From the sequence record PX393109.1: 64,000 bases of DNA; one strand, written 5' to 3'. Below are positions 1 through 62,759 of this stretch, piece after piece. Under the pieces are notes generated by a model. It saw only the letters and a list, made by a program, of their open reading frames with translations, was not told where the DNA came from and searched no databases. A program made the position numbers and the translations under genes. How positions within the stretch are numbered: position 1 is the stretch's first letter; each line of letters begins with the position of its first letter. The stretch comes from a phage.

Positions 1-1164
1 GTTGGTGATGATCGGGAGCGGGTTCGTGAGGCTAATGCTGCTCTTCCGGAATATGAAGATCGTGAGAAGTATGCGATGTTCTACTCTAACACTATCCCAG
101 TTCAGGATAGCACGAAGCGCCTCGCAGTGGTAATGATTAAGATCCGCCGTATGTCAGAGCACGAGTCATCAGAGTTAGGTCTTCTGAGTCTTATCCAGGC
201 ATTGGTAGCTAATCATGCTGATATGAAAGCCTATATCGAAGAGTGCGAAGATCCTACAGTAATCAATAGTGGTTATACAGAGTTCAGCGACTTCTATAAC
301 ACTACGGTGCTGGTGAATCCTCCTAGCTATCGTGATGTTGGCATCAGCAATGGGGTAATGTCGTATCATCCGACTAACTTACTCTACCTGCGAATCCTGC
401 GCCATGCTATCCGTATCAGAAGTATTCGCGATACTGCCGAGGCCAGCGAAGCGTTGTTATCTCTGATTCCTCGTGAATCTATTGTAATGCAGAAGATGGT
501 TAACGGACTAATCCTGGAGGGCACTAAGGACTATCGAGGTAACTTAATTAAGCCGATGATCAATAATCTTAAAGGTAAGGGTGGTCGAATCCGTGGTAAC
601 CTGTTAGGTAAGCGCGTTGATTACTCCGGTCGTTCTGTAGTTACTTCGGCTCCGCATCTTCCGCTGGATACTCTTGGTGTACCGTTCAAGATGATGTACG
701 AATTACTTCAGCCAGACATCCTGGGTGAGCTGGAGAACTTATATGGTGGCCCGACTAACGAAGGGTACAACATGTACGACATCAGCAATAAAGTCCAGCG
801 TATGTACAAGAATAAGTCCCGAGTAGCTCTGGAAGTATGCTGGAGACTGTGTGAGAATGCCACGGTGTTCATGAACCGTGCACCATCCCTACACCGTTAC
901 TCAGTATGGGGATTTAAGGTCAGACCTCACATGGGTAAGGAGATTCAGGTTCCTCCGATGGCTATGGGTGGTCAGAACATGGACGTGGATGGTGATACCG
1001 CAGCAATTCACCGTGTACTGACTGATCGTGCTTGCTGGGAAGTACGTAGCCTGATGATGGTTAACCAGAACATCAACAGCTCTATTGACTTCGATAGTCC
1101 GGTCGTGAAGCCGTCCCACGAAATGGTGGTAGGTCTGTTCCAGGCAACTACGGTGGATATGTAA
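1..1164 (+). CDS. Multisubunit RNA polymerase beta'-like protein, N-terminal-half homolog (5' end outside window)
   Basis: Frame is open from base 1. Motifs [33 protein letters not shown] and MDVDGDTAA match bacterial beta' ([41 protein letters not shown]). Protein stops shortly after the catalytic loop, i.e. a split beta'. Confidence 0.75.
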   Translation, partial: [387 protein letters not shown]

Positions 1165-1694
1165 TGAAGAAACATGCTATCGGTGAGAAAGATGTTGGTA
1201 GAGTTATCCACTTCGAGGGTACTCCCGAACGCGGTCTGGACCCTGCGGGCTATATAACAATCTTCTCAGATGCATCGTACTGTCATAAGAGTAAGGCTGC
1301 TGGTTTCGGAGGATGGATTCGTCTTCCTGGTGAGCAGCGAGCTCATATAACTCGCGGAGGATTTACTGCTGTAGATAATAACTGGGCAGAGCTAGAAGGG
1401 ATCATGAAGACCCTATGGTTTGCCATGACTAAGACAGCATTCGATGGTGTTAGGGTAGTCGTCCAATGCGATTGCGAATGGGCATTAAAGGAATTCATAG
1501 ATAAGCATATGGAAATGCTTCGCGATCTTAACCCTAAGTCCATTAAGGTTAAGCATGTCAAAGGTCATCAGAAGTTCAATAATCCTCGCTACAAAGTAAA
1601 TAATCTCTGTGATGAGATAGCTAAGCAGGAAATGGTTAAGTATAGAAATAAACTTAAAGGATACACAGATGCTGGGATTTTTAGTGGTGCATAA
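1164..1694 (+). CDS. RNase HI-like ribonuclease
   Basis: IFSDAS, NNWAELEG, QCDCEW and KGH..N..CDEIA align with RNase HI catalytic D/E/D/D positions; start overlaps upstream stop. Confidence 0.7.
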   Translation: MKKHAIGEKDVGRVIHFEGTPERGLDPAGYITIFSDASYCHKSKAAGFGGWIRLPGEQRAHITRGGFTAVDNNWAELEGIMKTLWFAMTKTAFDGVRVVVQCDCEWALKEFIDKHMEMLRDLNPKSIKVKHVKGHQKFNNPRYKVNNLCDEIAKQEMVKYRNKLKGYTDAGIFSGA

Positions 1695-1968
1695 GGAGCA
1701 CGGTGCTCTCTGTGGAGTAAACGAGTTTTACACCTCATGGACCGGTCTCGGCTGTAATCCAGATACCACCGCAGCATTCTTCGAGACTTATGAAGAGGCT
1801 GGATTAATATCTGAACTGTTGCAAGATCCAAACGTATCAGTATTCGGACCAATCTATCAAGACTCTGAAGTAACTGATAAGATTCCTGTAAGTATTGTGG
1901 AATCGTTGGGTATCAAATGCTCCTACTATAGGCAGGAGCCCGAAAATAAACTACCATGGCCATGGTGA
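1669..1968 (+). CDS. hypothetical protein
   Basis: ORF in the + gene array; true start uncertain because it overlaps the upstream gene end. Confidence 0.4.
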   Translation: MLGFLVVHKEHGALCGVNEFYTSWTGLGCNPDTTAAFFETYEEAGLISELLQDPNVSVFGPIYQDSEVTDKIPVSIVESLGIKCSYYRQEPENKLPWPW

Positions 1969-2480
1969 TAAAAATGAATAAAGCTGAAGTAGTGTTAGGA
2001 CTTGTACAGTCCGTGGACGAGGGTTACTCCTCGGTAAAATTCTGTCCAGACTCTGATGCCTGGATAGATAATCTTAAGCAGGTTATCTCTGAAGTAGCTG
2101 ATTATGATAAGCTTAACTTCGATACCGGTCACGATAACCACTGCACCCTTATGTATGCTCCGGGGACTGGTGCTCCGGATGAGGGAACTATTGCTGATCT
2201 GGTAGGTAGCAAACTTCATCTGAAGAATCCTCGCTATGAGATCTTCGGTGAGAATGCTAACTACCTGGTGCTGGCGTTCGATAGCGATCTGCTACAATCG
2301 TTTAACTATCGACTCCGTGCATCTGGGGAGGTACCGTCTGAGATCAGTGCGGAATACTCTCCTCACATAACTCTGGCCAAGGACGTAGAGAATCTGGATA
2401 TCTCTACTCTACCAGAATTACCGACCGATCTGTATTTAAACATCACTAGCGTAACTGCTGAGGAAATCAAGAATGACTAA
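1956..2480 (+). CDS. 2H phosphoesterase family protein (LigT / cyclic phosphodiesterase-like; Acb1-like candidate)
   Basis: Two H-x-T-x motifs (HCTLMY and HITLAK) about 76 residues apart in a 174-aa protein. Confidence 0.6.
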   Translation: MAMVIKMNKAEVVLGLVQSVDEGYSSVKFCPDSDAWIDNLKQVISEVADYDKLNFDTGHDNHCTLMYAPGTGAPDEGTIADLVGSKLHLKNPRYEIFGENANYLVLAFDSDLLQSFNYRLRASGEVPSEISAEYSPHITLAKDVENLDISTLPELPTDLYLNITSVTAEEIKND

Positions 2481-2817
2481 GAAGACTACTGGTAACAAAA
2501 TTAACCTGGACATGTTTCATCTGATGTATGCTAAGCAACTGGGTATGGAACCTGCTGCTTACGCTGCTAAGGTTAATTCAGACCAGGAGTTCCGTCACCA
2601 GGTAGAGACTGCGTTCTCTGGGTATGCAGTAGCTGTAAATGCTCTTCGCCTCCAGATCATCGGTGGCTCTAAGCTGTCTATTGAAGAGATAGCTCCTGGT
2701 GTGGCTAAGATCCGTCTGGGAGTGGGTGAGTGGGAGTTAGACAATACTCCTAAGAATACAGAAGTAGCTCTGGATGATTTCCTGATCTCCAGTAACTTTC
2801 TGACTGCCGCCGTTTAA
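2473..2817 (+). CDS. hypothetical protein
   Basis: ORF with overlapping start, followed by a terminator. Confidence 0.55.
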   Translation: MTKKTTGNKINLDMFHLMYAKQLGMEPAAYAAKVNSDQEFRHQVETAFSGYAVAVNALRLQIIGGSKLSIEEIAPGVAKIRLGVGEWELDNTPKNTEVALDDFLISSNFLTAAV

Positions 2818-2825
2818 TACGGTCC

Positions 2826-2875
2826 AAAGGCTGTTAACTTGGGGAACGCCCTCGGTTAACAGCCTATTTTTATTT
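2826..2875 (+). terminator. Rho-independent terminator (stem contains AAAGGCTGTTAAC)
   Basis: aggctgttaac ... gttaacagcct inverted repeat followed by atttttattt. Confidence 0.65.
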
Positions 2876-2892
2876 ACTCGTTAAGGTACGAT

Positions 2893-3198
2893 ATGAAGTC
2901 CACTAAACCAGTCGAATTCTTTGACTTACTGACCACCATGGCCATAGCTGGTTACACATCCGATGATCCCAACATGGTGGTTAAGAATATTGCTCGTCGG
3001 AATAAGAAGTTCTTCCCATCTGCTGATCGTAAGATGCTGGATGTGGTAATTAACCATAAACACCCAGCAGCAACTGTAATTAAGGCGGTATCTAATCTGC
3101 TAGGCACTGAAGTGGACGCTAAGTACATAGCTACTGTAATCCACACTACCGGAAGATTTTATCATAAGGTGGTAGCTAATGATTCTGTATCATCGTAG
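2893..3198 (+). CDS. hypothetical protein
   Basis: ORF after terminator. Confidence 0.55.
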   Translation: MKSTKPVEFFDLLTTMAIAGYTSDDPNMVVKNIARRNKKFFPSADRKMLDVVINHKHPAATVIKAVSNLLGTEVDAKYIATVIHTTGRFYHKVVANDSVSS

Positions 3199-3529
3199 TA
3201 AGCATAAATGGGATTGGCCTAGTTATGAGCTCATCCAGACCTTATCGCAGGGATGGGGTCCGGAGTTAGGCCTATATACCTGTAATGTAGATAATCTCTA
3301 CAATAGCCATGGGACCTATCTTTACGAGATAACTCTGAAGAAGTTCATTCGTCCCAGAGTGATTACAGTTACCGAGCTTAAGCATGTGCGAGATCTTGCC
3401 GCTATGAGAGAAGTCTTTATGGAGCAAGGATGGCAGGTGCTTAAGGTAGTGGAAGATAATGGGGAGTCTGTAATCTTCGTTATCATGGATATGGACTGTA
3501 TTGATACCATCGTTCGACACGAAAAATAA
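3179..3529 (+). CDS. hypothetical protein
   Basis: ORF; overlaps upstream end. Confidence 0.5.
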   Translation: MILYHRSKHKWDWPSYELIQTLSQGWGPELGLYTCNVDNLYNSHGTYLYEITLKKFIRPRVITVTELKHVRDLAAMREVFMEQGWQVLKVVEDNGESVIFVIMDMDCIDTIVRHEK

Positions 3530-3642
3530 AACGTTTTATTTTTCAAATAAACGATTTTTGAACCGTCCTAAAGCCCGTTCTTGTGGGCGGGGGCGTCAAG
3601 GCGCTTCCCGGTTCATCAAATCGTCTAATTTGGGATAAAACT

Positions 3643-3927
3643 ATGAAAATCGCTCAACTGCTCGCTGCTCTGGCAAATGACACTCTGGTAACTGACTACA
3701 TGGGTGTTTCAGTAAACTACAATTCCAACTGGGTAAGTGCGGTTGGTGAAAAGATCATCGGTTTCAAAGCTTACACTGGTCCAGAAGTGTTTCCTGAAGA
3801 AAGTCACTTCGCTTCCGACGGTTCTGATACAGTCGAGATGCTGGACCCAGGTACCGGTGCAGTGGTGGCTAAGTGTGAGGATGGTCTGTTCGAAGCGATC
3901 TTCGAAGAAGTAGACGTCCAGTTCTGA
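3643..3927 (+). CDS. hypothetical protein
   Basis: ATG (MKIAQLL) chosen inside the longer track ORF 3583..3927. Confidence 0.5.
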   Translation: MKIAQLLAALANDTLVTDYMGVSVNYNSNWVSAVGEKIIGFKAYTGPEVFPEESHFASDGSDTVEMLDPGTGAVVAKCEDGLFEAIFEEVDVQF

Positions 3928-3936
3928 TTCCAATCT

Positions 3937-3954
3937 GGAGGACTTCGGTCCTCC
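3937..3954 (+). terminator. Stable hairpin with CUUCGG-type loop
   Basis: ggaggac-ttcg-gtcctcc; followed by a TATAAT-like hexamer and GGAG. Confidence 0.5.
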
Positions 3955-3986
3955 TAATTCTTCCCCTTTATAATTTGGAGCTAATT

Positions 3987-4361
3987 ATGACTAACCAAGA
4001 ATTCATTCAAAAGTTCGACGCTAAAACTGCTTTCGAGAACATGCTGGCAGAAGTAGAATCAATGATCAATATGTCCGATTTGGTGGCTACTCCAGAAGTC
4101 CGCGAAGTACGTGGTCAGGTTTACGTGAGTGGTTCTACCGAGGACGTTATGTGCCAGATGAACATCCCGATGTTCAAATCCATGTGGATCCATATCTCCG
4201 GAGGCCCTCTGGATGACAAGACTGGTGCATGGTTCGAAGTTGGTTACCGCTACGAGCACCACGATGGTGGTTCGAATGGCCACCGTATTGCCCAGTTCGT
4301 GGTTGATATGAGTGGCGAAATCACGGTTCGTCGTCCGACTTTCACTAAAGAAGCAAAATAA
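3987..4361 (+). CDS. hypothetical protein
   Basis: ATG preceded by GGAG. Confidence 0.55.
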   Translation: MTNQEFIQKFDAKTAFENMLAEVESMINMSDLVATPEVREVRGQVYVSGSTEDVMCQMNIPMFKSMWIHISGGPLDDKTGAWFEVGYRYEHHDGGSNGHRIAQFVVDMSGEITVRRPTFTKEAK

Positions 4362-4371
4362 GGGGATCCTC

Positions 4372-4590
4372 ATGAACAAGCTCCGCTACCGTCTTGCTGT
4401 CCAGGTCAATGGTGTCCACTCCTTCACCATCCAGGGTAATGCTCCGAGTGCTCGTAAGCTGATAGAGCAATTCCAGACGTGGTACAAATTTATGGAGCCG
4501 GAGCTTGCTTATCAGGAGATAGAGTATCTACCGATGCGTGCTGACACACGCGACGTTAAAACCGAACTTTCCGTAACTCGTATTGCATAA
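4372..4590 (+). CDS. hypothetical protein
   Basis: ATG (MNKLRY) after upstream stop. Confidence 0.5.
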   Translation: MNKLRYRLAVQVNGVHSFTIQGNAPSARKLIEQFQTWYKFMEPELAYQEIEYLPMRADTRDVKTELSVTRIA

Positions 4591-4602
4591 CTTGGTGATA
4601 AA

Positions 4603-5016
4603 ATGAAGAAATTAATTGCTGCTTCTTTGATTCTGGCATCAGTCACAGCCCATGCTGGTAAAGATCCTCGTGTAGCTTCTGCTATGGAAGCTGATGTCAT
4701 TACTGCACTGTTGGCTAAGTCGTATGTTGAAGAGTGCCCAGAGTACAGTCTTGCTGAAGTGTTGTACTCTGCTAAAGAAGCGATGGTCCTGCCTGTTATG
4801 GATCATGGGCATAAGTCAGCAATCGTCCAGTTTAATGGCATAGGGTCTGATGGTAAGCCAGCAGTGATCCGCTCCCTGATTCATCTGGATCCGGTAGAAG
4901 TAGTTACAACTTTATCCGTAGAGAAAACTGGTGCGACTAAGGAAGATCTCAGTGACGCTAATGATCTGATCCTTCCATCCCTATGCACCGTAGCTGCGAA
5001 CGAATCTTTCCGTTAA
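4603..5016 (+). CDS. secreted/periplasmic protein of unknown function
   Basis: N-terminal signal peptide MKKLIAASLILASVTAHA. Confidence 0.6.
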   Translation: MKKLIAASLILASVTAHAGKDPRVASAMEADVITALLAKSYVEECPEYSLAEVLYSAKEAMVLPVMDHGHKSAIVQFNGIGSDGKPAVIRSLIHLDPVEVVTTLSVEKTGATKEDLSDANDLILPSLCTVAANESFR

Positions 5017-5047
5017 TATAGTATAATCTAATCTGTTAGGAGTTATT

Positions 5048-5359
5048 ATGAAAAACATCGATATCGCTAAACTGTTCCTTATATCTCGTCTGTATCGTCT
5101 GTCTAATTCTTCCTCGATGATTCTGTGGTATATCTCCGGAACCGCTTCGGGAGCCACGATCAACGAGTTAACTGTCTTTGCTGATAGCAAAGCATCACTG
5201 GGTCAAATCCCTCGTACGTCCATCTATTATGTATGTAATAAGTTGGAGAAGGATGGCTGGTTGATCAAAACGACCACTGCCTCGGAAGAGGGTGGTCGTC
5301 CGTGCAATTTATACTCTCTGAGCCATCGTGCTCGTTTCTTCCTCGACCTGAATAAGTAA
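5048..5359 (+). CDS. winged helix-turn-helix DNA-binding protein (putative regulator)
   Basis: ELTVFADSKASLGQIPRTSIYYVCNKLEKDGWLIK resembles a wHTH recognition helix plus wing; SD AGGAG upstream. Confidence 0.5.
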   Translation: MKNIDIAKLFLISRLYRLSNSSSMILWYISGTASGATINELTVFADSKASLGQIPRTSIYYVCNKLEKDGWLIKTTTASEEGGRPCNLYSLSHRARFFLDLNK

Positions 5360-5368
5360 GGTGCCGCT

Positions 5369-5749
5369 ATGTCTGTATACTTCAGAGCCGTAGTTGGTGG
5401 TCACGTAGTCGATGAAGATAACGTCAAGATCGTAACGACGAGTCTTGTTGGGTTACGGGACACTATTAACAAGGATGACCTCCTCCCGATTCACTACAAC
5501 ACTATTGTAGACCAATTAATTCAGGTGGAAACCGAAGATGGTCTATGCGGAAGCTTAGCGGAGCGAGTTGCTCAACCTATAGATCTGCTGGGTCTGTCCT
5601 TAAGGACCTCAGCTCTTCTTGATGAGCAACATGAGAATATGACTGTGGATCAAATTAAGTTCCTGGTCAAATTATCGAAGATGCTTACTGCCTTAGCTGC
5701 AATCAGTCATACCTATACACTGATAACAACAAATCTAATGTGGAGCTAA
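5369..5749 (+). CDS. hypothetical protein
   Basis: ORF. Confidence 0.55.
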   Translation: MSVYFRAVVGGHVVDEDNVKIVTTSLVGLRDTINKDDLLPIHYNTIVDQLIQVETEDGLCGSLAERVAQPIDLLGLSLRTSALLDEQHENMTVDQIKFLVKLSKMLTALAAISHTYTLITTNLMWS

Positions 5750-5751
5750 CC

Positions 5752-6048
5752 ATGCCTTCCGTAATCATTAAGTCTAAGCACCGAGCCCTGCTGCGTGCGG
5801 CTCAGTCCAAGAATCTGACGGAGATCACTAATATCGATCTCCATCCGAATACTCGCTACCATGACTACTTTATCTCCACGACGTTTATCGTGCTGGATAA
5901 AGATAAGGCGAAAGTAATCAAGAGCGTGGATAACCTCTTCGTCGAAGGCGAGATCATCCCTCTCCAGGATCTGTTCTCTAAACTGTCAGATGTGGAGCAG
6001 TCTACTCCTGCTACGAAGCATCCTGTCGACGTCCATATTTCCTTCTGA
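5752..6048 (+). CDS. hypothetical protein
   Basis: ATG with GGAG SD directly after upstream stop. Confidence 0.55.
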   Translation: MPSVIIKSKHRALLRAAQSKNLTEITNIDLHPNTRYHDYFISTTFIVLDKDKAKVIKSVDNLFVEGEIIPLQDLFSKLSDVEQSTPATKHPVDVHISF

Positions 6049-6055
6049 GGTAATT

Positions 6056-6262
6056 ATGGGATATAAGCTCTTTGAAACTAAGGAGCAGGAGGAGCGCTTC
6101 CTGAAGATGATTCGGGAAGGCTCCGCCATGAATACTCCTCGCAGTCCTGACGATCCTGGGTATAGAAGTGGGTGTAAGTCTATTACCCAGGAATTCAGTT
6201 CAACAGTCTACCGCTCGCAACATCCTTACGTGAGCGGAGGCAACTTAACTAAGGTCCGCTAA
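6056..6262 (+). CDS. hypothetical protein
   Basis: ATG (MGYKLF) with SD GAGG. Confidence 0.5.
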   Translation: MGYKLFETKEQEERFLKMIREGSAMNTPRSPDDPGYRSGCKSITQEFSSTVYRSQHPYVSGGNLTKVR

Positions 6263-6423
6263 TGGAATGGGTAAGAGCATTGATGGTCATGAGTAGGCTA
6301 AAGCCTATCTGCCCAGATGACATAATCCGGACTCGTGATGGATTGGTTATGTACCGTCAGGGTCACTTATCTGACCAGGATAAATCTGAAATCGGAATCT
6401 ATAGGTTCACTGATGGCTTTTAA
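6262..6423 (+). CDS. small hypothetical protein (53 aa)
   Basis: ATG overlaps upstream TAA (TAATG); below the ORF-track size cut-off. Confidence 0.3.
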   Translation: MEWVRALMVMSRLKPICPDDIIRTRDGLVMYRQGHLSDQDKSEIGIYRFTDGF

Positions 6424-6790
6424 ATTAATGGACAGAACCAAGATCCTGCATACCGCTGTAGAGAATGGTGGTTATGAATGCCGTACAGATAATAATTCTG
6501 TGAACATGGCAAACATCTCTACCTGCCTTAAGCTGGTGAGTGAAGGATTACTCTTCCACGGAACCACTGAACAGGATGCATATGACAAGCAGGTTAAGTG
6601 GTTCCATCCGACTCTTACTGGTATCTTAGTCGATACCCAGGAGAAACTGGCTTACCTCATTAATCGGGATAAGCCTCTATCTAAGAGGAAGTCTGAGATC
6701 CTGAATGCTAAACGTATTCTGGAAGATAAGCCTAACCTCGCATCTGTATTAAACGAAGATATCTTAAAATTAATTAGGGATTATAAATAA
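6413..6790 (+). CDS. hypothetical protein
   Basis: Start chosen at MAFKLMD inside track ORF 6335..6790. Confidence 0.45.
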   Translation: MAFKLMDRTKILHTAVENGGYECRTDNNSVNMANISTCLKLVSEGLLFHGTTEQDAYDKQVKWFHPTLTGILVDTQEKLAYLINRDKPLSKRKSEILNAKRILEDKPNLASVLNEDILKLIRDYK

Positions 6791-7032
6791 TGGCCATTCT
6801 GGTATTCGCCAAAGATCAACGGCAGTATAACGACTACATCCGTGCCAAGCACCTTACTCGCTCTGATGCTGTCTACGCCAGCTGTGTTAATAAGCTACGT
6901 GGTCTATTTCCTAAGCCTACTGAGATGCACTTGCTGCCTAATTGGGATCATAGTGGACCATCCCAGATGGCTATGGAAAAGGCTAAGACTCTCTTTCCAC
7001 AAGCAGTAGAGAAGTCTATCGAGCAGTGGTAA
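6790..7032 (+). CDS. hypothetical protein
   Basis: ORF; start overlaps upstream stop. Confidence 0.55.
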   Translation: MAILVFAKDQRQYNDYIRAKHLTRSDAVYASCVNKLRGLFPKPTEMHLLPNWDHSGPSQMAMEKAKTLFPQAVEKSIEQW

Positions 7033-7059
7033 AATTATTTTTCAAATAAACGAATTATG

Positions 7060-7085
7060 AACGGGTTTAAAGCCCGTTCTTTTGG
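7060..7085 (+). terminator. Rho-independent terminator
   Basis: aacggg-tttaaag-cccgtt followed by cttttggg. Confidence 0.6.
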
Positions 7086-7146
7086 GTGGGGCGGCTCCGG
7101 CGGCTCCAGTCCACTAACTTAGTATAATCTAATTTTGGAGAAAATA

Positions 7147-7254
7147 ATGTCAACTAAACTCATCCGCTTCGTAGATCGTTACAGCTGGGCTCTGGTATTT
7201 GGTCTGAGCTTTGCATTCTGGGCTGCTGTTGTTGCTATCTTCCACTTCGCATAA
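7147..7254 (+). CDS. small hydrophobic peptide (35 aa)
   Basis: ATG after TATAAT and GGAG; one predicted TM (WALVFGLSFAFWAAVVAIFHF). Confidence 0.4.
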   Translation: MSTKLIRFVDRYSWALVFGLSFAFWAAVVAIFHFA

Positions 7255-7265
7255 GGAACTCTATC

Positions 7266-7637
7266 ATGACTAACTTAGAAAAAGACGTTACCGTTTGTCG
7301 TGTTGATTCTTACCAGCCTGGTAAGCGTACAATGCTGTCTAACTCCACTTATCTGGAGGGAAGTCACTGCCTCGCCTATTTCGTGATGGATCCTAAAGCT
7401 AACCCAGAAGTCTATGATGAGTGGAAGGCTAAAATCCACGAAGCCTCAAAAGCTAATACTGGCCTGATGGTTACATACGGTCCTCGCACTCCTAAGTGGC
7501 CAGGCATCTTCGGTTCTCCGAATCTCTGGTGTGTTGATCTTAGCGAAGGCGACACAGCTCGTTATATCAAGCTGATGTCGATGCTCCTTCCGAGCCTGGA
7601 AGGAATTGTGGGTCTAGAGCAAGTTCAGGTACGATAA
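7266..7637 (+). CDS. hypothetical protein
   Basis: ORF. Confidence 0.55.
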   Translation: MTNLEKDVTVCRVDSYQPGKRTMLSNSTYLEGSHCLAYFVMDPKANPEVYDEWKAKIHEASKANTGLMVTYGPRTPKWPGIFGSPNLWCVDLSEGDTARYIKLMSMLLPSLEGIVGLEQVQVR

Positions 7638-7638
7638 A

Positions 7639-7806
7639 ATGAAAATTCCGACTCTTGATCAATTACTCACCACAGCAATGCACACGGTGATCCGTCGTCT
7701 GGTCTGGAATATCCCTAAAAAGTATTTCTGGATGGTGGTGTTGGCCACCATCATTATCAGCGGATTCGCCACTTTTAGAACTCTGTTTTGGAGCCTGTTA
7801 GGATGA
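7639..7806 (+). CDS. small membrane protein (55 aa)
   Basis: ATG directly after upstream stop; hydrophobic segment WMVVLATIIISGFATF; below ORF-track cut-off. Confidence 0.35.
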   Translation: MKIPTLDQLLTTAMHTVIRRLVWNIPKKYFWMVVLATIIISGFATFRTLFWSLLG

Positions 7807-8561
7807 CCTTCCGTATTGATGCTGTTCGCCACCTTCGCCAAATAGCCGAGCTTAAGAAAGCCCATGGTGATTCCGTGTGGCATGTTAGGGCGTATGATCG
7901 TGCAGCCCGTTCCTTGGATGATTACCCGTATGGTGTAACTTCCCAGATGAACTTCACTACAATCCCATGGATAGGTGCTGGGATTGCTAGCGAGTTAGAA
8001 GCCTTCGCTAAGTATGGCACCATGACTCCTAAGTTCATTGAACTTATGTCTAAAGTCCCAGAAGGTCGTGTTGCTTACTCCACTGAGGTTAAGGATATCA
8101 TTGAGTCCTACCTAACGGAAGTGACCAAACTGAGTCTTGCCGAGGGTAGCTCTGGTCGTATCTCTACAGCTGGTTCGGTACGTCGTGGTAAGATGTGGAT
8201 TCGCGACGTAGACCTGCTTACTACCTTCCCTCCAGAAATAGTTCGCCATGCTTTCCGTCTTACCGGTATGGAGGAACTGTATGGTAAGGATAAAAAGATC
8301 CGATTCGTCCATACTAATACTGGTATGGAATTTGATATCAAGATCTGTCCAGAAGAATCCTGGAACGCGTGCTTACTTCACTCCACAGGATCAATGCAGA
8401 ATAACGTACACATGCGTTCGGTGGCTAAGCGTATGGGCATGACTCTTAATGAGTATGGCCTGTTTAATGTAGAGACCGGTGAACGTGTGGATACTAATTC
8501 CTCTGAGGAAGAACTGTATCAGCTGCTTGGTCTGGAATACGTAGAACCTGAGAATCGCTAA
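7803..8561 (+). CDS. DNA polymerase X family (Pol beta-like) nucleotidyltransferase
   Basis: GSVRRGK plus DVDLL nucleotidyltransferase motifs; HhH-like N-terminus; C-terminal LLHSTGS..N..MR..A...G..L.EYGLF thumb-like motif. Confidence 0.7.
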   Translation: MTFRIDAVRHLRQIAELKKAHGDSVWHVRAYDRAARSLDDYPYGVTSQMNFTTIPWIGAGIASELEAFAKYGTMTPKFIELMSKVPEGRVAYSTEVKDIIESYLTEVTKLSLAEGSSGRISTAGSVRRGKMWIRDVDLLTTFPPEIVRHAFRLTGMEELYGKDKKIRFVHTNTGMEFDIKICPEESWNACLLHSTGSMQNNVHMRSVAKRMGMTLNEYGLFNVETGERVDTNSSEEELYQLLGLEYVEPENR

Positions 8562-8563
8562 TT

Positions 8564-8599
8564 CCGCTCTTTTAGGGTGCTAAAAGGCTGTTAAAGTGT
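8564..8599 (+). promoter_or_regulatory. Conserved motif A copy (candidate phage promoter)
   Basis: ccgctcttttagggtgctaaaaggctgttaaagtgt; SD and ATG (8626) follow within 27 bp. Confidence 0.5.
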
Positions 8600-8625
8600 C
8601 AATCCAACCGTAAGGAATAACAAAG

Positions 8626-19432: not shown

Positions 19433-19666
19433 ATGGATAAAGAGTTAAATGGTGCAGAAGAAGATGTTCTGTACAAATTATTCTGGTTCGGACCAGCAGC
19501 AGACGGAGACCTACCATCTAAATCTGGAGCATCTGGCTTGGTAGATAAAGGATTAGCTGCCTGGTTTAAGGGTAATAATCTCTGCCCTAAGATTTATGAT
19601 GACCGTAACATGTGTATGCTTACTTCCCTTGGGGTAGACTTAGCCAGAAATAAGTATACTAAATAA
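19433..19666 (+). CDS. hypothetical protein
   Basis: ORF with SD AAGGAG. Confidence 0.5.
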   Translation: MDKELNGAEEDVLYKLFWFGPAADGDLPSKSGASGLVDKGLAAWFKGNNLCPKIYDDRNMCMLTSLGVDLARNKYTK

Positions 19667-19668
19667 AA

Positions 19669-19704
19669 CCGCTCTTTTGTACGGTCAAAAGGCTGTTAAA
19701 CTGT
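19669..19704 (+). promoter_or_regulatory. Conserved motif A copy (candidate phage promoter)
   Basis: ccgctcttttgtacggtcaaaaggctgttaaactgt. Confidence 0.5.
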
Positions 19705-19714
19705 AGAGGTTATT

Positions 19715-20138: not shown

Positions 20139-20301
20139 GTTACTTATTATAAGTAGTATTGTTGCTCGGGATGCTCCATCAGTTCACTCGGTAATTGCGG
20201 AATTTGAGACTAAAGATCAAGCAGATCGTGCCTACGACAAAATGGTGGAATCTGCCAACCCTCAGTCCTGGGTATCTAACAAAGTAGTGAAACTTTACTA
20301 A
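20131..20301 (+). CDS. hypothetical small protein
   Basis: ATG after AGGAGG inside track ORF 20032..20301. Confidence 0.35.
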   Translation: MFKLLIISSIVARDAPSVHSVIAEFETKDQADRAYDKMVESANPQSWVSNKVVKLY

Positions 20302-20830
20302 TAGCTGAGTTCTATTAAGGCACCTAACGGCCTAATAGTTGCTCTTCCGTAAAACAGATTCGATAGTCTGGGAAGAGCAGCTATATACTCTCATTAAGTA
20401 ATGCGTATACATAGGGCACGATTAAGTTACGTCTCCGGCTATGGTTGCATTACGAATAGTTAGGTAGTGTCCCTATTCAGATTGTCCGGAACTGGATAGA
20501 GGATGAAGGTATTGTCGAGACCTTAGTGGGGACTGATGCGAACTACACTAAGGTTTATACCCTCTCAACATTCTTAGGGGCATCTACGTAGTATACCTTG
20601 CGTCACGCGTAGGGTGAGCGAGTTAAAGCCCAAAGTGGCTTTAGGGAGCGAATCCCAGGGGGAGGCTCGGGTGGGCAAGGTCAGAGTCTCCGGAGGAGCT
20701 TAGTCTCGTGTACGCGGCGGCTCTGCCAGCCGCCGCTACACTCCAATTGGTTAAATTAGATAAGGGGCCGGTAGTTCCTACGTCCATTAGTTTAGGAGTT
20801 ATTATTTGATTATGTTGAGGAACACTATTA
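20302..20830. other. Long non-coding region with GC-rich hairpins (candidate ncRNA or origin)
   Basis: About 530 bp without a convincing ORF; hairpins aaagcc/ggcttt, cggcggc/gccgccg, gctcttcc/ggaagagc. Confidence 0.35.
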
Positions 20831-22486: not shown

Positions 22487-23142
22487 TGCGGATCTGGACC
22501 GACAAGAACTCTATTCTGGAGTTTATCGGAGAGTACCGATTCCTATCTAACTTTTATCCTGTTCCTATTGAGGATAAGAATCCTTACGGGAACGAGACTC
22601 TTCCCTCCCTTACTTACCCTAGTGTGGAGCATGCCTATCAAGCATCTAAGTCTCCATCACTAGCCCATCGTCTTATCATAGCTAGACTTCATACTCCTGG
22701 TGAGGCCAAGAGATATGGACGTAAGCTGCCCATTACTGAATCGTGGAAGGAACAGAGAGTAGATGTGATGGAACACCTACTCCGGATTAAATTCGCGAAA
22801 GGTGGGGAGCTAGCTCAAAAATTGACCGATACTTGGCCTAAGGAGCTGGTCGAAGGAAATACCCACGGAGATTCCTTCTGGGGTATGACTCGTGAGGAGT
22901 ACAAGTCCGTCCTCACTGGTATTAATATGCTCGGACGATTACTGATGAAACTTCGGGAGGAGTTAGTTATGGAACAAATGACCAAGGAGACAGGATCGTT
23001 TGCGGAGTGGCATAAACTGCTGCACCAATACGCTCAGTCTCGTGGCGGTAGCGCTGCTGATGCGGAAGCCTGGCGGGATGATTACGATGAAGGTAAGACC
23101 CCTAAGCAGGCCTACGACGATGAGTGGGGCGAAGAAGACTAA
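22483..23142 (+). CDS. NADAR (YbiA-like, DUF1768) domain protein
   Basis: FLSNFYP ... EHAYQASK ... FAKGGELAQKL ... GDSFWGM matches the NADAR signature. Confidence 0.75.
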   Translation: MMRIWTDKNSILEFIGEYRFLSNFYPVPIEDKNPYGNETLPSLTYPSVEHAYQASKSPSLAHRLIIARLHTPGEAKRYGRKLPITESWKEQRVDVMEHLLRIKFAKGGELAQKLTDTWPKELVEGNTHGDSFWGMTREEYKSVLTGINMLGRLLMKLREELVMEQMTKETGSFAEWHKLLHQYAQSRGGSAADAEAWRDDYDEGKTPKQAYDDEWGEED

Positions 23143-23150
23143 CCTATCTT

Positions 23151-23180
23151 AGCGCTCTTTAGGGAGCGCTATTTTTATTT
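23151..23180 (+). terminator. Rho-independent terminator
   Basis: agcgctc-tttagg-gagcgct followed by atttttattt. Confidence 0.75.
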
Positions 23181-23196
23181 AATGTTGGGAGTAATT

Positions 23197-23436
23197 ATGG
23201 AACAACCTATCCAAGCAGTAACTAATGCGGTTGGGAGCATGCAGATCGTGGGTTATGATACCTATGAGCAAGTAGCTCAATCAGTTAAACTCGATCCTCG
23301 CAAGAAGCGTCGTGGTCATCGTCGAGCAGCTAAGAGTCTGCTTAGTAATGGTGGGGTCTTCAATAACTACTCTGCACCAGGAACTACATTCTGGTGGGTC
23401 GCACAATGGCATCTTAAGAAGGCACGTAATGGCTGA
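23197..23436 (+). CDS. hypothetical protein
   Basis: ATG (MEQPIQ) with SD GGGAG. Confidence 0.5.
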   Translation: MEQPIQAVTNAVGSMQIVGYDTYEQVAQSVKLDPRKKRRGHRRAAKSLLSNGGVFNNYSAPGTTFWWVAQWHLKKARNG

Positions 23437-23782
23437 AGATACTGGGATTCATGACGGACGCTGGGAAGATCGATATAACTCAGTACGACAGGAATTAGAC
23501 ACTACTAAGGCTAATCTGAGTAAGGCTAGAGTAGAGAATGCTGAAAACCGAGCTATGCATCATCGTATTATTCAGATGGCTATTGATGATGGCTGGACTG
23601 GTGATCATAATAGTAATGTTGAGGATGCAGTAAAATTCCTATCGGGTAGAGAGCGTAAAGTAACTACCCCTAAAATTCATTACACAGATCATATCACAAT
23701 AGGTAAGGCATCTCCAGTATATGATGCCGTTGAAGTAGATACATTATTAACCAGTCTAGGGTATACTGTGGATAAGGATTAA
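23429..23782 (+). CDS. hypothetical protein
   Basis: Start at MAEDTG inside track ORF 23312..23782. Confidence 0.45.
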   Translation: MAEDTGIHDGRWEDRYNSVRQELDTTKANLSKARVENAENRAMHHRIIQMAIDDGWTGDHNSNVEDAVKFLSGRERKVTTPKIHYTDHITIGKASPVYDAVEVDTLLTSLGYTVDKD

Positions 23783-23784
23783 TT

Positions 23785-23820
23785 CCGCCGTTTCTTACCC
23801 TCGAAAGGCTGTTAAATTGT
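23785..23820 (+). promoter_or_regulatory. Conserved motif A copy (candidate phage promoter; variant CCGCCGTTT)
   Basis: ccgccgtttcttaccctcgaaaggctgttaaattgt, then AAGGA and ATG (23847). Confidence 0.45.
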
Positions 23821-23846
23821 TGCACCTCAACTGATAAGGATAACCG

Positions 23847-24560
23847 ATGTCTACTAAGATGATGCCACACCATCTGGCTCCGAATAAACTGTTTAACCGA
23901 TTCCTGTCATATCACGACTCCTACCACTGCGCAATTGACATCGAGACCGAGTATCTCGATTTTAAAGAGCCTGGGGTAGTTCTATCTGTAGGTATGGTGA
24001 CGGTTGGTCCTGATCACTACTCCCACGTCTACTTCACTATTGATCGAGAAGAGTCGCTGGCTCTGGGTATGAAGTCTGACCCTAACGTAGTTGAATGGCT
24101 CAACACTCTCCCGAAACCCGTCCGTGATGCTGCATATGCTAATCCAGTATCTGTTGACGAAGCTCTGGATATCATCGAAGAGTACGTAGCTAAGGTACTA
24201 CAGGATCCTGGTTGCCAGATGTTGAACTTCATCGGTAACGCACCAGAGTTCGACCAGGGATTCCTGGATTGGTACTTTAAGGCTAAAGGACGTAAGACCC
24301 CGTTCCTACACTGGATGAATCGAGATTACCGCACTCTGGCTAGTCTGCAGCTGATCTCATTCGATGATCGTCGCATGATTAAAGAAGAACTGAGTAGCCA
24401 GCACGAGTCTATGTCTGATCACCATGCATTGTTCGATGCGATGCTGGAAGCTAAGACTTGGGTTCGCACCATCAATCGTGTAAAAGAGTTACAGGATCTG
24501 GAGCACGAGGTGAATACCATGATTGCTATGCAGGGTAACTCTGTGGAAGATGGAGAGTAA
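23847..24560 (+). CDS. DEDD-type 3'-5' exonuclease (DnaQ-like)
   Basis: AIDIETE (Exo I) and HHALFDA (Exo III, DEDDh) motifs. Confidence 0.65.
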   Translation: MSTKMMPHHLAPNKLFNRFLSYHDSYHCAIDIETEYLDFKEPGVVLSVGMVTVGPDHYSHVYFTIDREESLALGMKSDPNVVEWLNTLPKPVRDAAYANPVSVDEALDIIEEYVAKVLQDPGCQMLNFIGNAPEFDQGFLDWYFKAKGRKTPFLHWMNRDYRTLASLQLISFDDRRMIKEELSSQHESMSDHHALFDAMLEAKTWVRTINRVKELQDLEHEVNTMIAMQGNSVEDGE

Positions 24561-24873
24561 GCTTTGTCGGGTGGTTAATATACGTACCAATCCTAACTAC
24601 GATTTATATGTTGGGAGAGGTACTATATTCGGGAATAAGTGGAGCCATAAAGATTTACCTAACGCTATTAACGTAGGTTCCCGAACATTAGCCATCGCGA
24701 AATACAGACTATGGTTCCACCAGCAAGTAAAAGATGGCCACATAAGCATCTCCTACTTACGGACTCTTAAGGGTAAGACTTTAGGGTGCTCCTGCTTACC
24801 GTTACCATGTCATGCTCAAGTTATAGCTGACTTCGTTAATTCATTACCTGACGAAGATTCCGCTCTTTCGTAG
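24550..24873 (+). CDS. DUF4326-like protein
   Basis: VNIRTNPNYDLYVGRG...GNKWS resembles the DUF4326 N-terminal signature; start overlaps exonuclease end. Confidence 0.45.
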   Translation: MESKLCRVVNIRTNPNYDLYVGRGTIFGNKWSHKDLPNAINVGSRTLAIAKYRLWFHQQVKDGHISISYLRTLKGKTLGCSCLPLPCHAQVIADFVNSLPDEDSALS

Positions 24874-24895
24874 CCTCCAAAGGCTGTTAAACTGT
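24860..24895 (+). promoter_or_regulatory. Conserved motif A copy (candidate phage promoter)
   Basis: ccgctctttcgtagcctccaaaggctgttaaactgt; the 5' half overlaps the stop of the upstream gene. Confidence 0.5.
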
Positions 24896-24911
24896 TGGAA
24901 AGGAAATCTCT

Positions 24912-25136
24912 ATGCAATCACGTCGTATTGGTTTGTTAAGCGGTATCGGTATGGTTCTGGCTGGATTAGGTCATATGTGGCCCACCCCAGCAGTGTCTGC
25001 TAAAGGCTATGACGGATTCCGTCGCGCCTGTACCAAGGTAAGCTGCCCTAAGACTACTACAGCATCTGCATTAAAGCGTGCGGCTAAGAAGGCTAAAGGC
25101 CGTAAGGTTAATAAGCAACGTCACAAGGGTAAATAA
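24912..25136 (+). CDS. small membrane protein with basic tail
   Basis: N-terminal hydrophobic segment; Lys/Arg-rich C-terminus. Confidence 0.5.
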   Translation: MQSRRIGLLSGIGMVLAGLGHMWPTPAVSAKGYDGFRRACTKVSCPKTTTASALKRAAKKAKGRKVNKQRHKGK

Positions 25137-25516
25137 TGTCTCATATGACCCGAGAAGAAATCGTATTGATGGTGGCTAAGGTGTGTCACGAAGCTAATCG
25201 TGCATACTGCCATTCTATCGGAGACTTCACCCAATTAAGCTGGGAAGCAACATCCGATGAAATAAAACAGTCGGCTATTGATGGAGCGTATAACTGCTTA
25301 CACAATAACCGTATCAGCCCAGAAGAGTCCCATGAATTCTGGGTTAAAACTAAAAAGGAGCAGGGCTGGAAGTATGGAGAAATCAAAGATCTCGCAGCTA
25401 AGACGCACCCGTGTATGGTTCCATATTCACGGTTGCCGGAAGAGCATCGAGTCAAAGATCACCTCTTCACCAGCATCTGCGCAGCATTCATTAAACAGTA
25501 CAAAAGGGCATCATGA
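25136..25516 (+). CDS. RyR-domain-like protein
   Basis: [20 protein letters not shown]...[20 protein letters not shown] resembles the bacterial/phage RyR-domain consensus. Confidence 0.45.
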
Positions 25517-25983
25517 TGACCGTAGTTCAAGTAAAGAAAACTATTAACTGGGACGACTCTCTGGAGTTACCGAAATACGCTAAAGCTGGTGATGCTGGTC
25601 TTGATCTTCGTGCGATGATTAAGACTGACGAAATCGATAAAATCGCTGTAAATCCTGGCGAAACTATCCTGGTCCCTACCGGTCTAGCGATCAACATCGG
25701 CGATCCGAACATCGCTTCTGTGATTCTTCCCCGCAGCGGCCTCGGCCATAAAAATGGCATCGTACTGGGTAACTTGGTTGGTCTTATCGACTCCGGCTAT
25801 CAAGGAGAACTGATGGTGTCTGTGTGGAACCGTAGTAACGAATCTTTCGTTATTAACCACGGCGACCGTATCGCTCAAATGGTGTTTCTTCCCGTTATCC
25901 ATCCAGAGCTCCAGCTTGTGGATAAATTCTCTGATGTTTCTGAACGTGGCGACGGTGGGTTTGGCCATTCCGGGATTAAGTAA
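25513..25983 (+). CDS. dut: dUTP diphosphatase (dUTPase)
   Basis: [44 protein letters not shown] and DRIAQMVF motifs. Confidence 0.9.
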
Positions 25984-26065: not shown

Positions 26066-26269
26066 ATGATGGATATTGAGCAACTAACTAAGGATCTTAA
26101 TCGTAACCAGATTACGGTTATTCGTTCGGAGCACTTAGCTCCCAAGACTATGATCGTGTCTGATGATATCTGGGGCACATTCAAGAATAATAATAATAAT
26201 AATAATAATAATGCTACTGTAGAAGCTACAGATGAAGAATCTGTTAAGAACATGCTGGAGCATCCGTAA
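26066..26269 (+). CDS. hypothetical protein with poly-Asn tract
   Basis: Start MMDIEQ with SD GAGGA; contains the (AAT)9 repeat. Confidence 0.5.
   Translation: MMDIEQLTKDLNRNQITVIRSEHLAPKTMIVSDDIWGTFKNNNNNNNNNATVEATDEESVKNMLEHP
26185..26211 (+). repeat. (AAT)9 trinucleotide microsatellite
   Basis: aataataataataataataataataat, in frame, encoding N9. Confidence 0.9.
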
Positions 26270-38437: not shown

Positions 38438-38561
38438 TGGTGATCTCCATAAAAATATTACATGATGTACAAATACTTAGTAACTTTAGGGTAGTGATTA
38501 GTTTAAGTTAAATCTTAAATTGAAGCCTCTCCCTTCTACTACCTACGGTAAAAGTCTTTAT

Positions 38562-62674: not shown

Positions 62675-62759
62675 ATCTACCTCTTTGGTTGGTGGTTAGT
62701 GCTAGTGTGTCGTCCTGACTAAATTTAGTTTGACTAATCGAGATATGTCAAAGTAAATT

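What the first reader, a model, noticed from the sequence alone, without database searches (positions are those of the whole stretch)
3535..7132. Roughly 55-bp repeated intergenic element plus shared -10-like box
tatttttcaaataaacgaWttWtgaacSgKYYtaaagcccgttcttKtgggYgggg occurs twice (3535-3596 and 7032-7096), each time just after a stop codon. A 13-mer agtataatctaat containing TATAAT occurs at about 5017 and 7120, both around 20 bp upstream of an ATG. This suggests a second promoter class (host sigma70-type) interleaved with motif A.
Basis: seen in the sequence. Interest (0 to 1): 0.45.

Follow-up and report, generated by a model that had tools for sequence, protein, structure and literature searches.

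The report
Conserved phage early-gene regulatory cassette
The repeated ~55-bp intergenic element is real. It belongs to a small family of phage-specific regulatory cassettes, most likely promoters with a 5' stem-loop leader, that also sit in front of the phage's own RNA polymerase genes; it is not a host sigma70 promoter, and the shared TATAAT 13-mer is probably a coincidence of ribosome-binding-site context.

Summary
The window is a close relative (94-98% identity) of Escherichia phages vB_EcoM_IME392 and EP_H11, myoviruses of the YerA41/RP13 group with thymidine-hypermodification genes and a split beta'-like RNA polymerase. Both copies of the element exist (3536-3592 and 7035-7091) and are far beyond chance. 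Homology runs across the whole ~115-nt intergenic region to the start codon. Complete genomes carry five canonical copies plus one degenerate copy, all co-oriented with the genes. Each has an AT-rich box (TTATTTTTCAAATAA), a box ACGATTTTTG, a near-invariant core TAAAGCCCGTTCTTTTGGGTGG, a GC-rich stem-loop starting in GGGTGG, and a shared ribosome-binding region. Two copies precede the beta' gene clusters. Ralstonia phage RP13 (43% beta' identity) has seven cassettes of the same layout, four at syntenic positions. A profile built from them retrieves the E. coli phage copies as its three best hits. I read the element as a second, ancient, phage-specific promoter-plus-leader class, probably early. 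No copy has a sigma70 -35/-10 pair. The 13-mer occurs only twice, is not enriched, lacks a -35, is not conserved among paralogous cassettes, and abuts the Shine-Dalgarno. The transcription start site and the polymerase are unresolved.

The parts
3518..3642 (+). Cassette copy 1 (copy D of the genome-wide family): whole intergenic unit from its left homology edge to the base before the ATG at 3643
   Evidence: Homology with EP_H11 resumes at window 3518 after a 618-bp indel. nhmmer profile hit 3547-3592, E 2.6e-14.
3521..3544 (.). Perfect 24-bp AT-rich palindrome GAAAAATAAAACGTTTTATTTTTC overlapping the AT box
   Evidence: Read directly. Similar inverted repeats of GAAAAATAA occur in copies A, B and C but in different arrangements.
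3536..3550 (+). AT-rich box TTATTTTTCAAATAA (copy 1)
   Evidence: Exact 19-mer shared with copy 2. The 12-mer ATTTTTCAAATA is also present in an RP13 class II cassette.
3551..3560 (+). Upstream box ACGATTTTTG (copy 1)
   Evidence: Conserved as (A/C)CGAWYTWTG in all five copies, 21 nt before AAGCCCG.
3569..3590 (+). Core TAAAGCCCGTTCTTGTGGGCGG (copy 1; two substitutions relative to the other four copies)
3585..3614 (+). GC-rich stem-loop whose 5' arm is the GGGCGG of the core (copy 1)
   Evidence: RNAfold -14.3 kcal/mol, z -1.7. All five copies fold at this position, mean z -2.6.
3624..3635 (+). Shared ribosome-binding region TCTAATTTGGGA; ATG at 3643 (94-aa ORF to 3927)
   Evidence: The gene matches EP_H11 CDS 33126-33410.
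7033..7146 (+). Cassette copy 2 (copy E): whole intergenic unit; ATG at 7147 (35-aa hydrophobic ORF to 7254)
   Evidence: nhmmer 7047-7091, E 9.2e-14. Best hit in the window of the RP13 class II profile, 7030-7091, E 0.0034.
7035..7049 (+). AT-rich box TTATTTTTCAAATAA (copy 2)
7050..7059 (+). Upstream box ACGAATTATG (copy 2)
7059..7083 (+). Copy-specific hairpin GAACGGGTTTAAAGCCCGTTC followed by TTTT (terminator-like); its 3' arm lies in the core
   Evidence: Terminator scan. Centroid fold -12.9 kcal/mol. The other four copies have only a 4-5-bp GRRC...GTTC helix here.
7068..7089 (+). Core TAAAGCCCGTTCTTTTGGGTGG (copy 2, consensus form)
7084..7112 (+). GC-rich stem-loop starting in GGGTGG (copy 2)
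   Evidence: RNAfold -18.6 kcal/mol, z -2.3. The C/T differences among window, IME392 and EP_H11 change G-C to G.U and keep the pairing.
7121..7133 (+). 13-mer AGTATAATCTAAT, overlapping the ribosome-binding region TCTAATTTTGGAG (7128-7140)
5020..5032 (+). Second copy of the 13-mer, in the 31-nt spacer between the stop at 5014-5016 and the ATG at 5048; not part of a cassette
2804..2870 (+). Nearest motif-A site (CCGCCGTTT...AAAGGCTGTTAAC), given for context. Its core is the 5' arm of a terminator-like hairpin. It forms the left boundary of the indel whose right boundary is cassette copy 1.

Best explanation
The element is one class (called B here) of a phage-specific transcription-initiation cassette. 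It is distinct from the abundant motif A and unrelated to sigma70 promoters. Each cassette contains, in order: an AT-rich box; a second box (ACGATTTTTG); the near-invariant core TAAAGCCCGTTCTTTTGGGTGG; a 9-10-bp GC-rich stem-loop whose 5' arm is the GGGTGG; and a shared ribosome-binding region. My reading is that a pre-existing polymerase starts transcription inside the cassette. Because no sigma70 signal is present, that polymerase is most likely the phage's own multisubunit enzyme delivered with the virion, or host polymerase redirected by a phage factor. The start would be either at the GGG after the core, or about 6 nt after the AT box as in the virion-polymerase promoters of phiKZ and AR9. 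The mRNA would then carry the stem-loop at or near its 5' end as a stabilising or insulating leader. The cassettes drive early operons, including the two beta' polymerase gene clusters and clusters of small ORFs. In copy 2 an extra hairpin plus T4 inside the cassette probably also stops read-through from upstream. Shown: family size, layout, orientation, folding, cross-genus conservation and synteny. Inferred: promoter activity, the start site, early timing and the polymerase.
For: There are 5 canonical copies plus 1 degenerate copy per complete genome. All are intergenic and on the coding strand; only 2 lie in the window. The core is identical in 4 of 5 copies, and there are no intermediates to motif A. 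Canonical terminators sit immediately upstream of copies A and B, so a new transcript is needed. Copies B and C precede the clusters containing beta'C and beta'N (Pfam). A stem-loop forms at the same position in 5 of 5 copies (mean z -2.6, against -0.6 for motif-A sites and -0.17 for random 36-mers), and substitutions between genomes keep the pairing. RP13 has 7 cassettes with the same order: AT box AAAATATTTTTAC, then N6, then GAAATGTTAG, then AGTTANTTTGG, then a GC hairpin and a shared RBS. Four are at syntenic places: after the SbcC/SMC ATPase gene, before both annotated polymerase subunit genes, and before the PolX cluster. The RP13 profile's three best hits in EP_H11 are copies A, E and C (E 4.8e-4, 2.1e-3, 9.8e-3), and its best hit in the window is copy 2. 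One RP13 cassette lies 70 nt before ORF1 inside the sequence duplicated at both ends of the record. In the more distant relative YerA41, polymerase subunit genes are early and their products are particle-associated (PMC7354516). AT-rich boxes with a start 6 nt downstream define virion-polymerase early promoters in phiKZ and AR9 (PMC7598289, PMC5312081). The + strand block of the window has no good sigma70 promoter.
Against: There is no transcript data, so promoter activity, start site and timing are all inferred. A motif-A profile does not retrieve the B copies even at E 100, so the shared pattern I saw (CG.T.TTT-N10-AAG.C.GTT at equal spacing) is only suggestive. RNAalifold on a MAFFT alignment found no compensatory pairs in the stem-loop. 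Two of the five hairpins are not clearly better than shuffles (z -1.3 and -1.7). The permissive terminator scan also flags the stem-loops of copies A and B as terminator-like. No second (virion) polymerase set and no beta-like subunit was detected. No cassette-like motif was seen around the YerA41 polymerase genes. Acinetobacter phage Ab1-TPeters shows only one weak B-like site.
Confidence: 0.6

Rival explanations
1. Transcribed regulatory leader. Only the AT-rich box is the promoter (virion-polymerase type, start about 6 nt downstream). The conserved boxes, core and stem-loop then act as RNA: an attenuator, a processing site or a protein-binding site that tunes expression of polymerase and early genes. 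This overlaps the best explanation and differs in the start site and in what the core does.
For: The RP13 and E. coli phage AT boxes fit AAAATATTTTT(A/C)(C/A)-N6-purine, like AR9's AAATATATATTAT-(6N)-G. The spacing from AT box to core varies (33, 33, 33, 44, 54 nt), which a leader tolerates. In RP13 the segment contains three GTTAG repeats. A U-rich tract followed by a stable hairpin is a common RNA-level signal. In copy 2 the leader would contain a terminator-like hairpin.
Against: The spacing steps of 11 and 21 nt equal one and two helical turns, which fits DNA-level phasing equally well. Ab1-TPeters sites with GGG plus a hairpin directly after the downstream box have no AT box and follow stop codons directly. 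There was no Rfam match. No conserved pairing was found beyond the terminal stem-loop.
Confidence: 0.2
2. Intrinsic terminator or insulator. The hairpins end the upstream transcription unit, and the sequence conservation reflects a terminator shared by duplication.
For: Copy 2 has a 9-bp hairpin followed by TTTT. The stem-loops of EP_H11 copies A and B pass the permissive terminator scan. Every copy follows a stop codon.
Against: Four of five copies lack the copy-2 hairpin. The conserved stem-loop is followed by TTC, TGC or AGT rather than a T run. Copies A and B already have canonical terminators just upstream. A terminator does not explain the invariant 20-nt single-stranded core, the AT box, or the shared RBS. 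The conserved T tract lies before the stem-loop, not after it.
Confidence: 0.08
3. Host sigma70 early promoters, with AGTATAATCTAAT as the -10 box.
For: A perfect TATAAT occurs at 5022-5027 and 7123-7128. Copy B also has TATAAT and copy C has GATAAT about 20 nt before the ATG. The upstream region is AT-rich and could act like an UP element.
Against: There is no -35 or TGn at either site. The 13-mer is not enriched. It is absent from copies D and A. The predicted start would fall in or just before the Shine-Dalgarno, and after the GGAG in copy B. TCTAAT plus an SD recurs inside operons. The sigma70 scan is at background in this region (18 found, 20.3 expected). The phage DNA is predicted to carry hypermodified thymidine (PMC12686479; Pfam 5-hmdU kinase).
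Confidence: 0.05
4. The repeats are chiefly recombination substrates, that is, mobile regulatory cassettes like the PeSLs of T4-type phages. Their repetition would reflect gene shuffling more than a dedicated regulatory class. This is compatible with promoter function.
For: The 618-bp indel (window 2900-3517, two genes absent from EP_H11) ends exactly at the left edge of copy 1. EP_H11 has a 209-bp insertion carrying a small gene directly after the stem-loop of copy A. Only the intergenic unit is repeated, not the flanking genes.
Against: Only 2 of about 7 indel junctions in the + block touch a cassette. Four cassette positions are syntenic with RP13 across genera, which points to stable regulatory roles rather than mobility.
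Confidence: 0.07

Closest known systems
Early (virion RNA polymerase) promoters of phiKZ- and AR9-type phages that encode multisubunit polymerases
   Same: A highly conserved AT-rich box upstream of early operons, found by motif over-representation. In AR9 it is AAATATATATTAT-(6N)-G+1 (PMC5312081; PMC7598289). Here and in RP13 there is an AT box followed by N6 and usually a purine. The cassettes sit upstream of phage polymerase subunit genes.
   Different: The genomes are 111-116 kb, not jumbo. Only one detectable beta' set exists, and no virion polymerase has been shown. The cassette has about 45 more conserved bases (two boxes and a stem-loop) that phiKZ and AR9 promoters lack. No start site has been mapped.
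PeSLs (promoter-early stem-loops) of T4-type phages
   Same: Short composite stem-loop-plus-promoter units repeated between small early genes, found at indel junctions between close relatives (PMC2839356; PMC4122927).
   Different: PeSLs carry a sigma70 early promoter and a terminator stem-loop upstream of it. Here no sigma70 elements exist and the conserved stem-loop lies downstream of the conserved core. The link to indels rests on two junctions.
T7-type late promoters with a 5' stem-loop leader (for example the phi10 leader). This comparison is recalled from general knowledge and was not tested here.
   Same: A roughly 20-nt near-invariant recognition sequence, then GGG, then a stem-loop beginning at or next to the putative +1, then a strong RBS.
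   Different: T7 uses a single-subunit polymerase, and none is evident in this phage. There is no sequence similarity.
Motif A of the same phage (CCGCTCTTTT-N9-AAAGGCTGTTAAAnTGT; 24 per genome)
   Same: Same strand, same intergenic placement, and a two-box layout with the same 20-21-nt offset. It shares CG.T.TTT and AAG.C.GTT. One motif-A site lies 31 nt before the first gene of the + block in a divergent region, so it behaves as a promoter.
   Different: A motif-A profile does not detect the B copies. B has an AT box and an obligatory stem-loop, whereas only 7 of 24 A sites are followed by a stable hairpin. Positions 11-14 after AAAG are CTTT in B instead of AAAn.

Membership tests
Bacterial sigma70 promoter | -35 hexamer resembling TTGACA, 16-18 bp upstream of the -10 | tested here: not met
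   None is present upstream of TATAAT at 5022 or 7123, or at a homologous position in the five cassettes. Region-wide count is 18 against 20.3 expected.
Bacterial sigma70 promoter | -10 hexamer TAnnnT conserved across members of the class | tested here: not met
   TATAAT is present in copies E and B and GATAAT in copy C. It is replaced by CAAATCG in copy D and ATCTTC in IME392 copy A. The core has TCTTTT at the -10-equivalent position.
Bacterial sigma70 promoter | Start site about 7 nt downstream of the -10, leaving a usable leader | tested here: inconclusive
   The predicted start falls in or just before the SD (5037-5043; 7138-7141) and just after the GGAG in copy B. No transcript data are available.
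Intrinsic (factor-independent) terminator | GC-rich hairpin immediately followed by a T/U run | tested here: not met
   This is met only by the copy-2-specific hairpin at 7059-7083, which has just T4. The conserved stem-loop is followed by TTC, TGC or AGT in all copies, and the T tract precedes it. The permissive scan flags EP_H11 copies A and B.
Virion-RNAP early promoters of phiKZ/AR9-like phages | Over-represented, highly conserved AT-rich element of about 10-13 nt upstream of early operons | tested here: met
   TTATTTTTCAAATAA occurs in copies C, D and E, with variants in A and B. RP13 has AAAATATTTTTAC in 7 cassettes, one of them 70 nt before ORF1 in the terminally duplicated sequence.
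Virion-RNAP early promoters of phiKZ/AR9-like phages | Transcription start 6 nt downstream of the element; transcription independent of host RNAP and of new protein synthesis | not testable with these tools
   This needs dRNA-seq or primer extension with and without rifampicin and chloramphenicol.
Virion-RNAP early promoters of phiKZ/AR9-like phages | Phage encodes a virion-packaged multisubunit RNAP | tested here: inconclusive
   Only one beta'N/beta'C pair was detected, and no beta-like domain was found. In the distant relative YerA41 the RNAP subunits are particle-associated (PMC7354516).
PeSL (T4-type mobile promoter/terminator cassette) | Composite terminator stem-loop plus sigma70 early promoter | tested here: not met
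   There are no sigma70 elements, and the stem-loop lies downstream of the conserved core.
PeSL (T4-type mobile promoter/terminator cassette) | Located at indel or replacement junctions between close relatives | tested here: inconclusive
   Two junctions coincide with cassette edges, and about five others do not.
Known RNA families (Rfam 15) | Covariance-model match | tested here: not met
   Only three chance-level hits to eukaryotic snoRNA/miRNA models in 2700-8700, none at the cassettes.

The most novel reading that the evidence does not exclude
The cassette defines the early promoters of a virion-delivered multisubunit RNA polymerase in a non-jumbo phage lineage with hypermodified thymidine. 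The conserved core and stem-loop would form a transcribed leader that autoregulates or insulates the polymerase and early operons. That would be an ancient bipartite promoter-plus-leader switch shared by Escherichia and Ralstonia phages, with no described counterpart in phiKZ or AR9.
Probability: 0.25. Interest if true: 0.6.

Novelty: new member of a known kind. Interest (0 to 1): 0.4.

Why it matters
I found no published description of transcription signals for the IME392/EP_H11/RP13 group. These phages carry thymidine-hypermodification genes and encode a split multisubunit RNA polymerase in a genome of about half jumbo size. The analysis gives two discrete signal classes. The rarer class sits in front of the polymerase genes and is conserved in layout and position across host genera. 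That yields a concrete map of where to look for start sites. It also offers a way to ask which enzyme starts the infection programme, and provides candidate orthogonal promoter and leader parts. The practical lesson is that a TATAAT next to a Shine-Dalgarno is not evidence for a host promoter.

Tried and rejected
- Rfam scan of 2700-8700: nothing relevant.
- Exact-pattern scans for the 20-nt core: IMG/VR gave 9 hits, all unrelated coding sequence. JGI metagenomes and GTDB genomes gave none.
- A motif-A pattern scan found only one 1.2-kb metagenome fragment of a close relative plus one chance hit. No extra sequences were available for covariation analysis.
- RNAalifold on the stem-loop: the MAFFT alignment was structurally poor and showed no compensatory pairs.
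- Motif-A HMM against the B copies: no hits, so I dropped the claim that B is a demonstrable derivative of A.
- Host alternative sigma factors (sigma54, sigma32, sigmaE, sigma28) were checked by eye against the core and rejected. This check is my own inference, with no tool result behind it.
- lambda boxA/nut resemblance of the motif-A upstream box (CGCTCTTT) was considered and set aside. Twenty-four copies, one of them ahead of the first gene of a divergent block, fit a promoter better.
- Search for beta-like or sigma-like subunits in about 50 proteins with Pfam, PHROGs and PDB: only beta'N and beta'C were found.
- YerA41 polymerase region: no cassette-like motif.
- Literature on IME392, EP_H11, RP13 and YerA41 promoters: none found.

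Full report
**What the window is.** Megablast places the region in two E. coli myoviruses: vB_EcoM_IME392 (98.1% identity) and EP_H11 (94.3%). The window corresponds to IME392 17620 downwards, on its minus strand. Genes run on the + strand to about 28.5 kb and on the minus strand (structural genes) after that. Pfam finds a beta'-type RNA polymerase fragment at 76-1164 and a K1 endosialidase tailspike. Two papers group IME392 and EP_H11 with YerA41, RP13 and SP-15. This group has a UDG-fused PolA and predicted hypermodified thymidine (PMC12686479; bioRxiv 2025.03.26.645540).

**Checking the observation.** Both copies of the repeat are present.
- TATTTTTCAAATAAACGA occurs at 3537 and 7036 (0.11 expected).
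- TAAAGCCCGTTCTT occurs at 3569 and 7068 (0.32 expected).
- The copies are 86% identical over 57 nt.
- Similarity continues to the start codons at 81% over 141 columns. The repeated unit is therefore the whole ~115-nt intergenic region (3518-3642 and 7033-7146).
- The downstream genes (94 aa and 35 aa) are unrelated to each other.

The 13-mer is at 5020-5032 and 7121-7133 but is not enriched. At <=2 mismatches, 3 matches were found against 3.46 expected. Shuffles give about 10 repeated 14-mers per window, and several other repeated 14-15-mers are also ribosome-binding regions.

**Family size.** A sensitive blastn found five places in each complete genome. They lie at EP_H11 2260, 25016, 28840, 33055 and 36553 (copies A-E; D and E are the window copies), all on the coding strand. 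A profile HMM finds these five at E about 1e-13, one degenerate sixth copy at EP_H11 ~25353-25394 (E 0.042), and nothing else in the window. No sequences are intermediate between the two classes.

**Anatomy.** Each cassette contains, in order:
1. An AT-rich box, TTATTTTTCAAATAA. In copies A, B, C and D it forms part of perfect or near-perfect inverted repeats of GAAAAATAA, in differing arrangements.
2. A box (A/C)CGAWYTWTG.
3. Twenty-one nt further on, the core (T)AAAGCCCGTTCTTTTGGGTGG, identical in four copies.
4. A GC-rich stem-loop of 9-10 pairs whose 5' arm is GGGTGG.
5. TCTAAT-TTGGRR-N8-ATG.

The AT box lies 33 nt before the core in copies C, D and E, 44 nt before it in A, and 54 nt before it in B. 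These steps equal about one and two helical turns.

**The stem-loop.** It folds at -14 to -19 kcal/mol with z-scores of -1.3 to -4.3. All five copies fold at this position, with a mean z of -2.6. Motif-A sites give -0.6 and random 36-mers give -0.17. Differences between genomes convert G-C to G.U or G.U to A-U and keep the pairing. RNAalifold gave no formal covariation.

**The copy-2 hairpin.** The terminator-like hairpin that a scan finds in copy 2 (7059-7079 followed by TTTT) is specific to that copy.

**Context.**
- Canonical terminators lie directly upstream of copies A and B.
- Copy B precedes the cluster containing beta'C, and copy C precedes the cluster containing beta'N.
- Copy E leads to a PolX-like gene.
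- Two indels between close genomes end at cassette edges. The window carries 618 bp (2900-3517) that EP_H11 lacks, ending at the left edge of copy D. EP_H11 carries 209 bp directly after the stem-loop of copy A.

**Motif A behaves as a promoter.** One site lies 31 nt before the first gene of the + block, in the divergent region next to the structural genes. The B boxes share CG.T.TTT and AAG.C.GTT with motif A at the same offset. A motif-A HMM nevertheless does not retrieve B, so I treat this resemblance as suggestive only.

**Distant relatives.** tblastn with the beta' fragment finds Ralstonia phage RP13 (42.6% identity) and Acinetobacter phage Ab1-TPeters (44.3%).

RP13 has two classes of signal.
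- An abundant two-box class: ACGACTCTAT-N9-AGACCTTGTAAG, about 25 sites, oriented with the genes.
- Seven unique cassettes of a second class. Their order is AAAATATTTTTAC-N6-GGAAATGTTAGNAGT-N8-AGTTANTTTGG(G), then a GC hairpin, then a shared RBS.

The second RP13 class matches the E. coli phage cassettes in several respects.
- One RP13 cassette even contains TTATTTTTCAAATA, at the same 41-nt distance from GTTNNTTTGG as in copy D.
- Four RP13 cassettes are syntenic with the E. coli phage copies: after the SbcC/SMC ATPase gene, before both annotated polymerase subunit genes, and before the PolX cluster.
- One lies 70 nt before ORF1, inside the sequence duplicated at both ends of the record.
- An HMM of the seven RP13 cassettes, searched against EP_H11, gives copies A, E and C as its three best hits (E 4.8e-4, 2.1e-3, 9.8e-3). 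Its best hit in the window is copy 2 (E 0.0034).

Ab1-TPeters has analogous two-box sites, often followed by GGG plus a hairpin. It has only one weak B-like site, upstream of its polymerase cluster.

**Sigma70 reading.**
- The scan of 1-12000 is at background (18 found, 20.3 expected) and has no + strand hit at either TATAAT.
- My own scan finds no good sigma70 promoter in the + block, and only one in the whole window, at 62751 on the minus strand.
- The TATAAT lacks a -35 and a TGn, and it is not conserved among cassettes.
- It sits against the Shine-Dalgarno.
- TCTAAT followed by an SD also occurs at operon-internal junctions.

**Interpretation.** The element is a second, ancient, phage-specific initiation cassette, probably early. 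Three lines of evidence support early timing.
- It precedes polymerase genes.
- In YerA41 those genes are early and their products are in the particle (PMC7354516).
- Its AT box with N6 and a purine resembles the virion-polymerase promoters of AR9 and phiKZ.

I cannot decide whether transcription starts after the AT box, which would make the core an RNA leader, or at the GGG after the core. I also cannot say which polymerase is used. Only one beta' set and no beta-like subunit were detectable.

Noticed in passing
window 2826-2870: The core of a motif-A site (AGGCTGTTAAC) is the 5' arm of a hairpin (...GTTAACAGCCT) followed by ATTTTTATTT. This looks like a terminator overlapping a putative promoter, so read-through transcripts could terminate while transcripts that start downstream of the 5' arm would not form the hairpin.
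   Followed up: partly
window 8561-8600, 14597-14636, 19666-19705 and other motif-A sites: The two boxes of motif A are partly complementary (GC(T)CTTTT ... AAAAGGC). Flanking bases covary between sites and between genomes: CTTTTG/CAAAAG in the window at 19675-19692 corresponds to CTTTC/GAAAG at the orthologous EP_H11 site. The upstream box CGCTCTTT also resembles lambda/rrn boxA.
   Followed up: partly
L006 (EP_H11) 12422-13393: Pfam PF18723, the 5-hmdU DNA kinase helical domain, matches at E 4e-35. The preprint 10.1101/2025.03.26.645540 states that this kinase could not be detected in the group.
   Followed up: no
L006 (EP_H11) 22571-24926 and whole genome: Only beta'N and beta'C polymerase fragments are recognisable. 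No beta-like (Rpb2) domain was found in about 50 proteins scanned. Two adjacent unknown proteins (303 and 483 aa) just upstream of cassette B are untested candidates.
   Followed up: partly
window 62751 (minus strand): This is the only good sigma70-like promoter in the window (TTGACA-18-TAAATT). It follows a terminator and lies upstream of gene 61964-62674(-), next to the capsid gene region.
   Followed up: no
window 20139-20640: A 502-nt stretch has no ORF of >=50 aa by crude gene calling. No tRNA was found anywhere in the window.
   Followed up: partly
window 26186-26212: An (AAT)9 microsatellite lies in the 285-nt gap between ORFs 25513-25983 and 26269-26892.
   Followed up: no
window 35816-41549 (minus strand): A full K1 endosialidase tailspike (38562-41549) sits next to a second tailspike-like protein (35816-38437). 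Several further proteins carry the Tail_spike_N adaptor domain, which suggests a branched, multi-receptor tail-fibre set.
   Followed up: no
L006 (EP_H11) 2297-2330: A (CTT)n run (cttcttcttcttcttcttct) lies directly after the stem-loop of cassette copy A, at the left junction of a 209-bp insertion that IME392 lacks.
   Followed up: no
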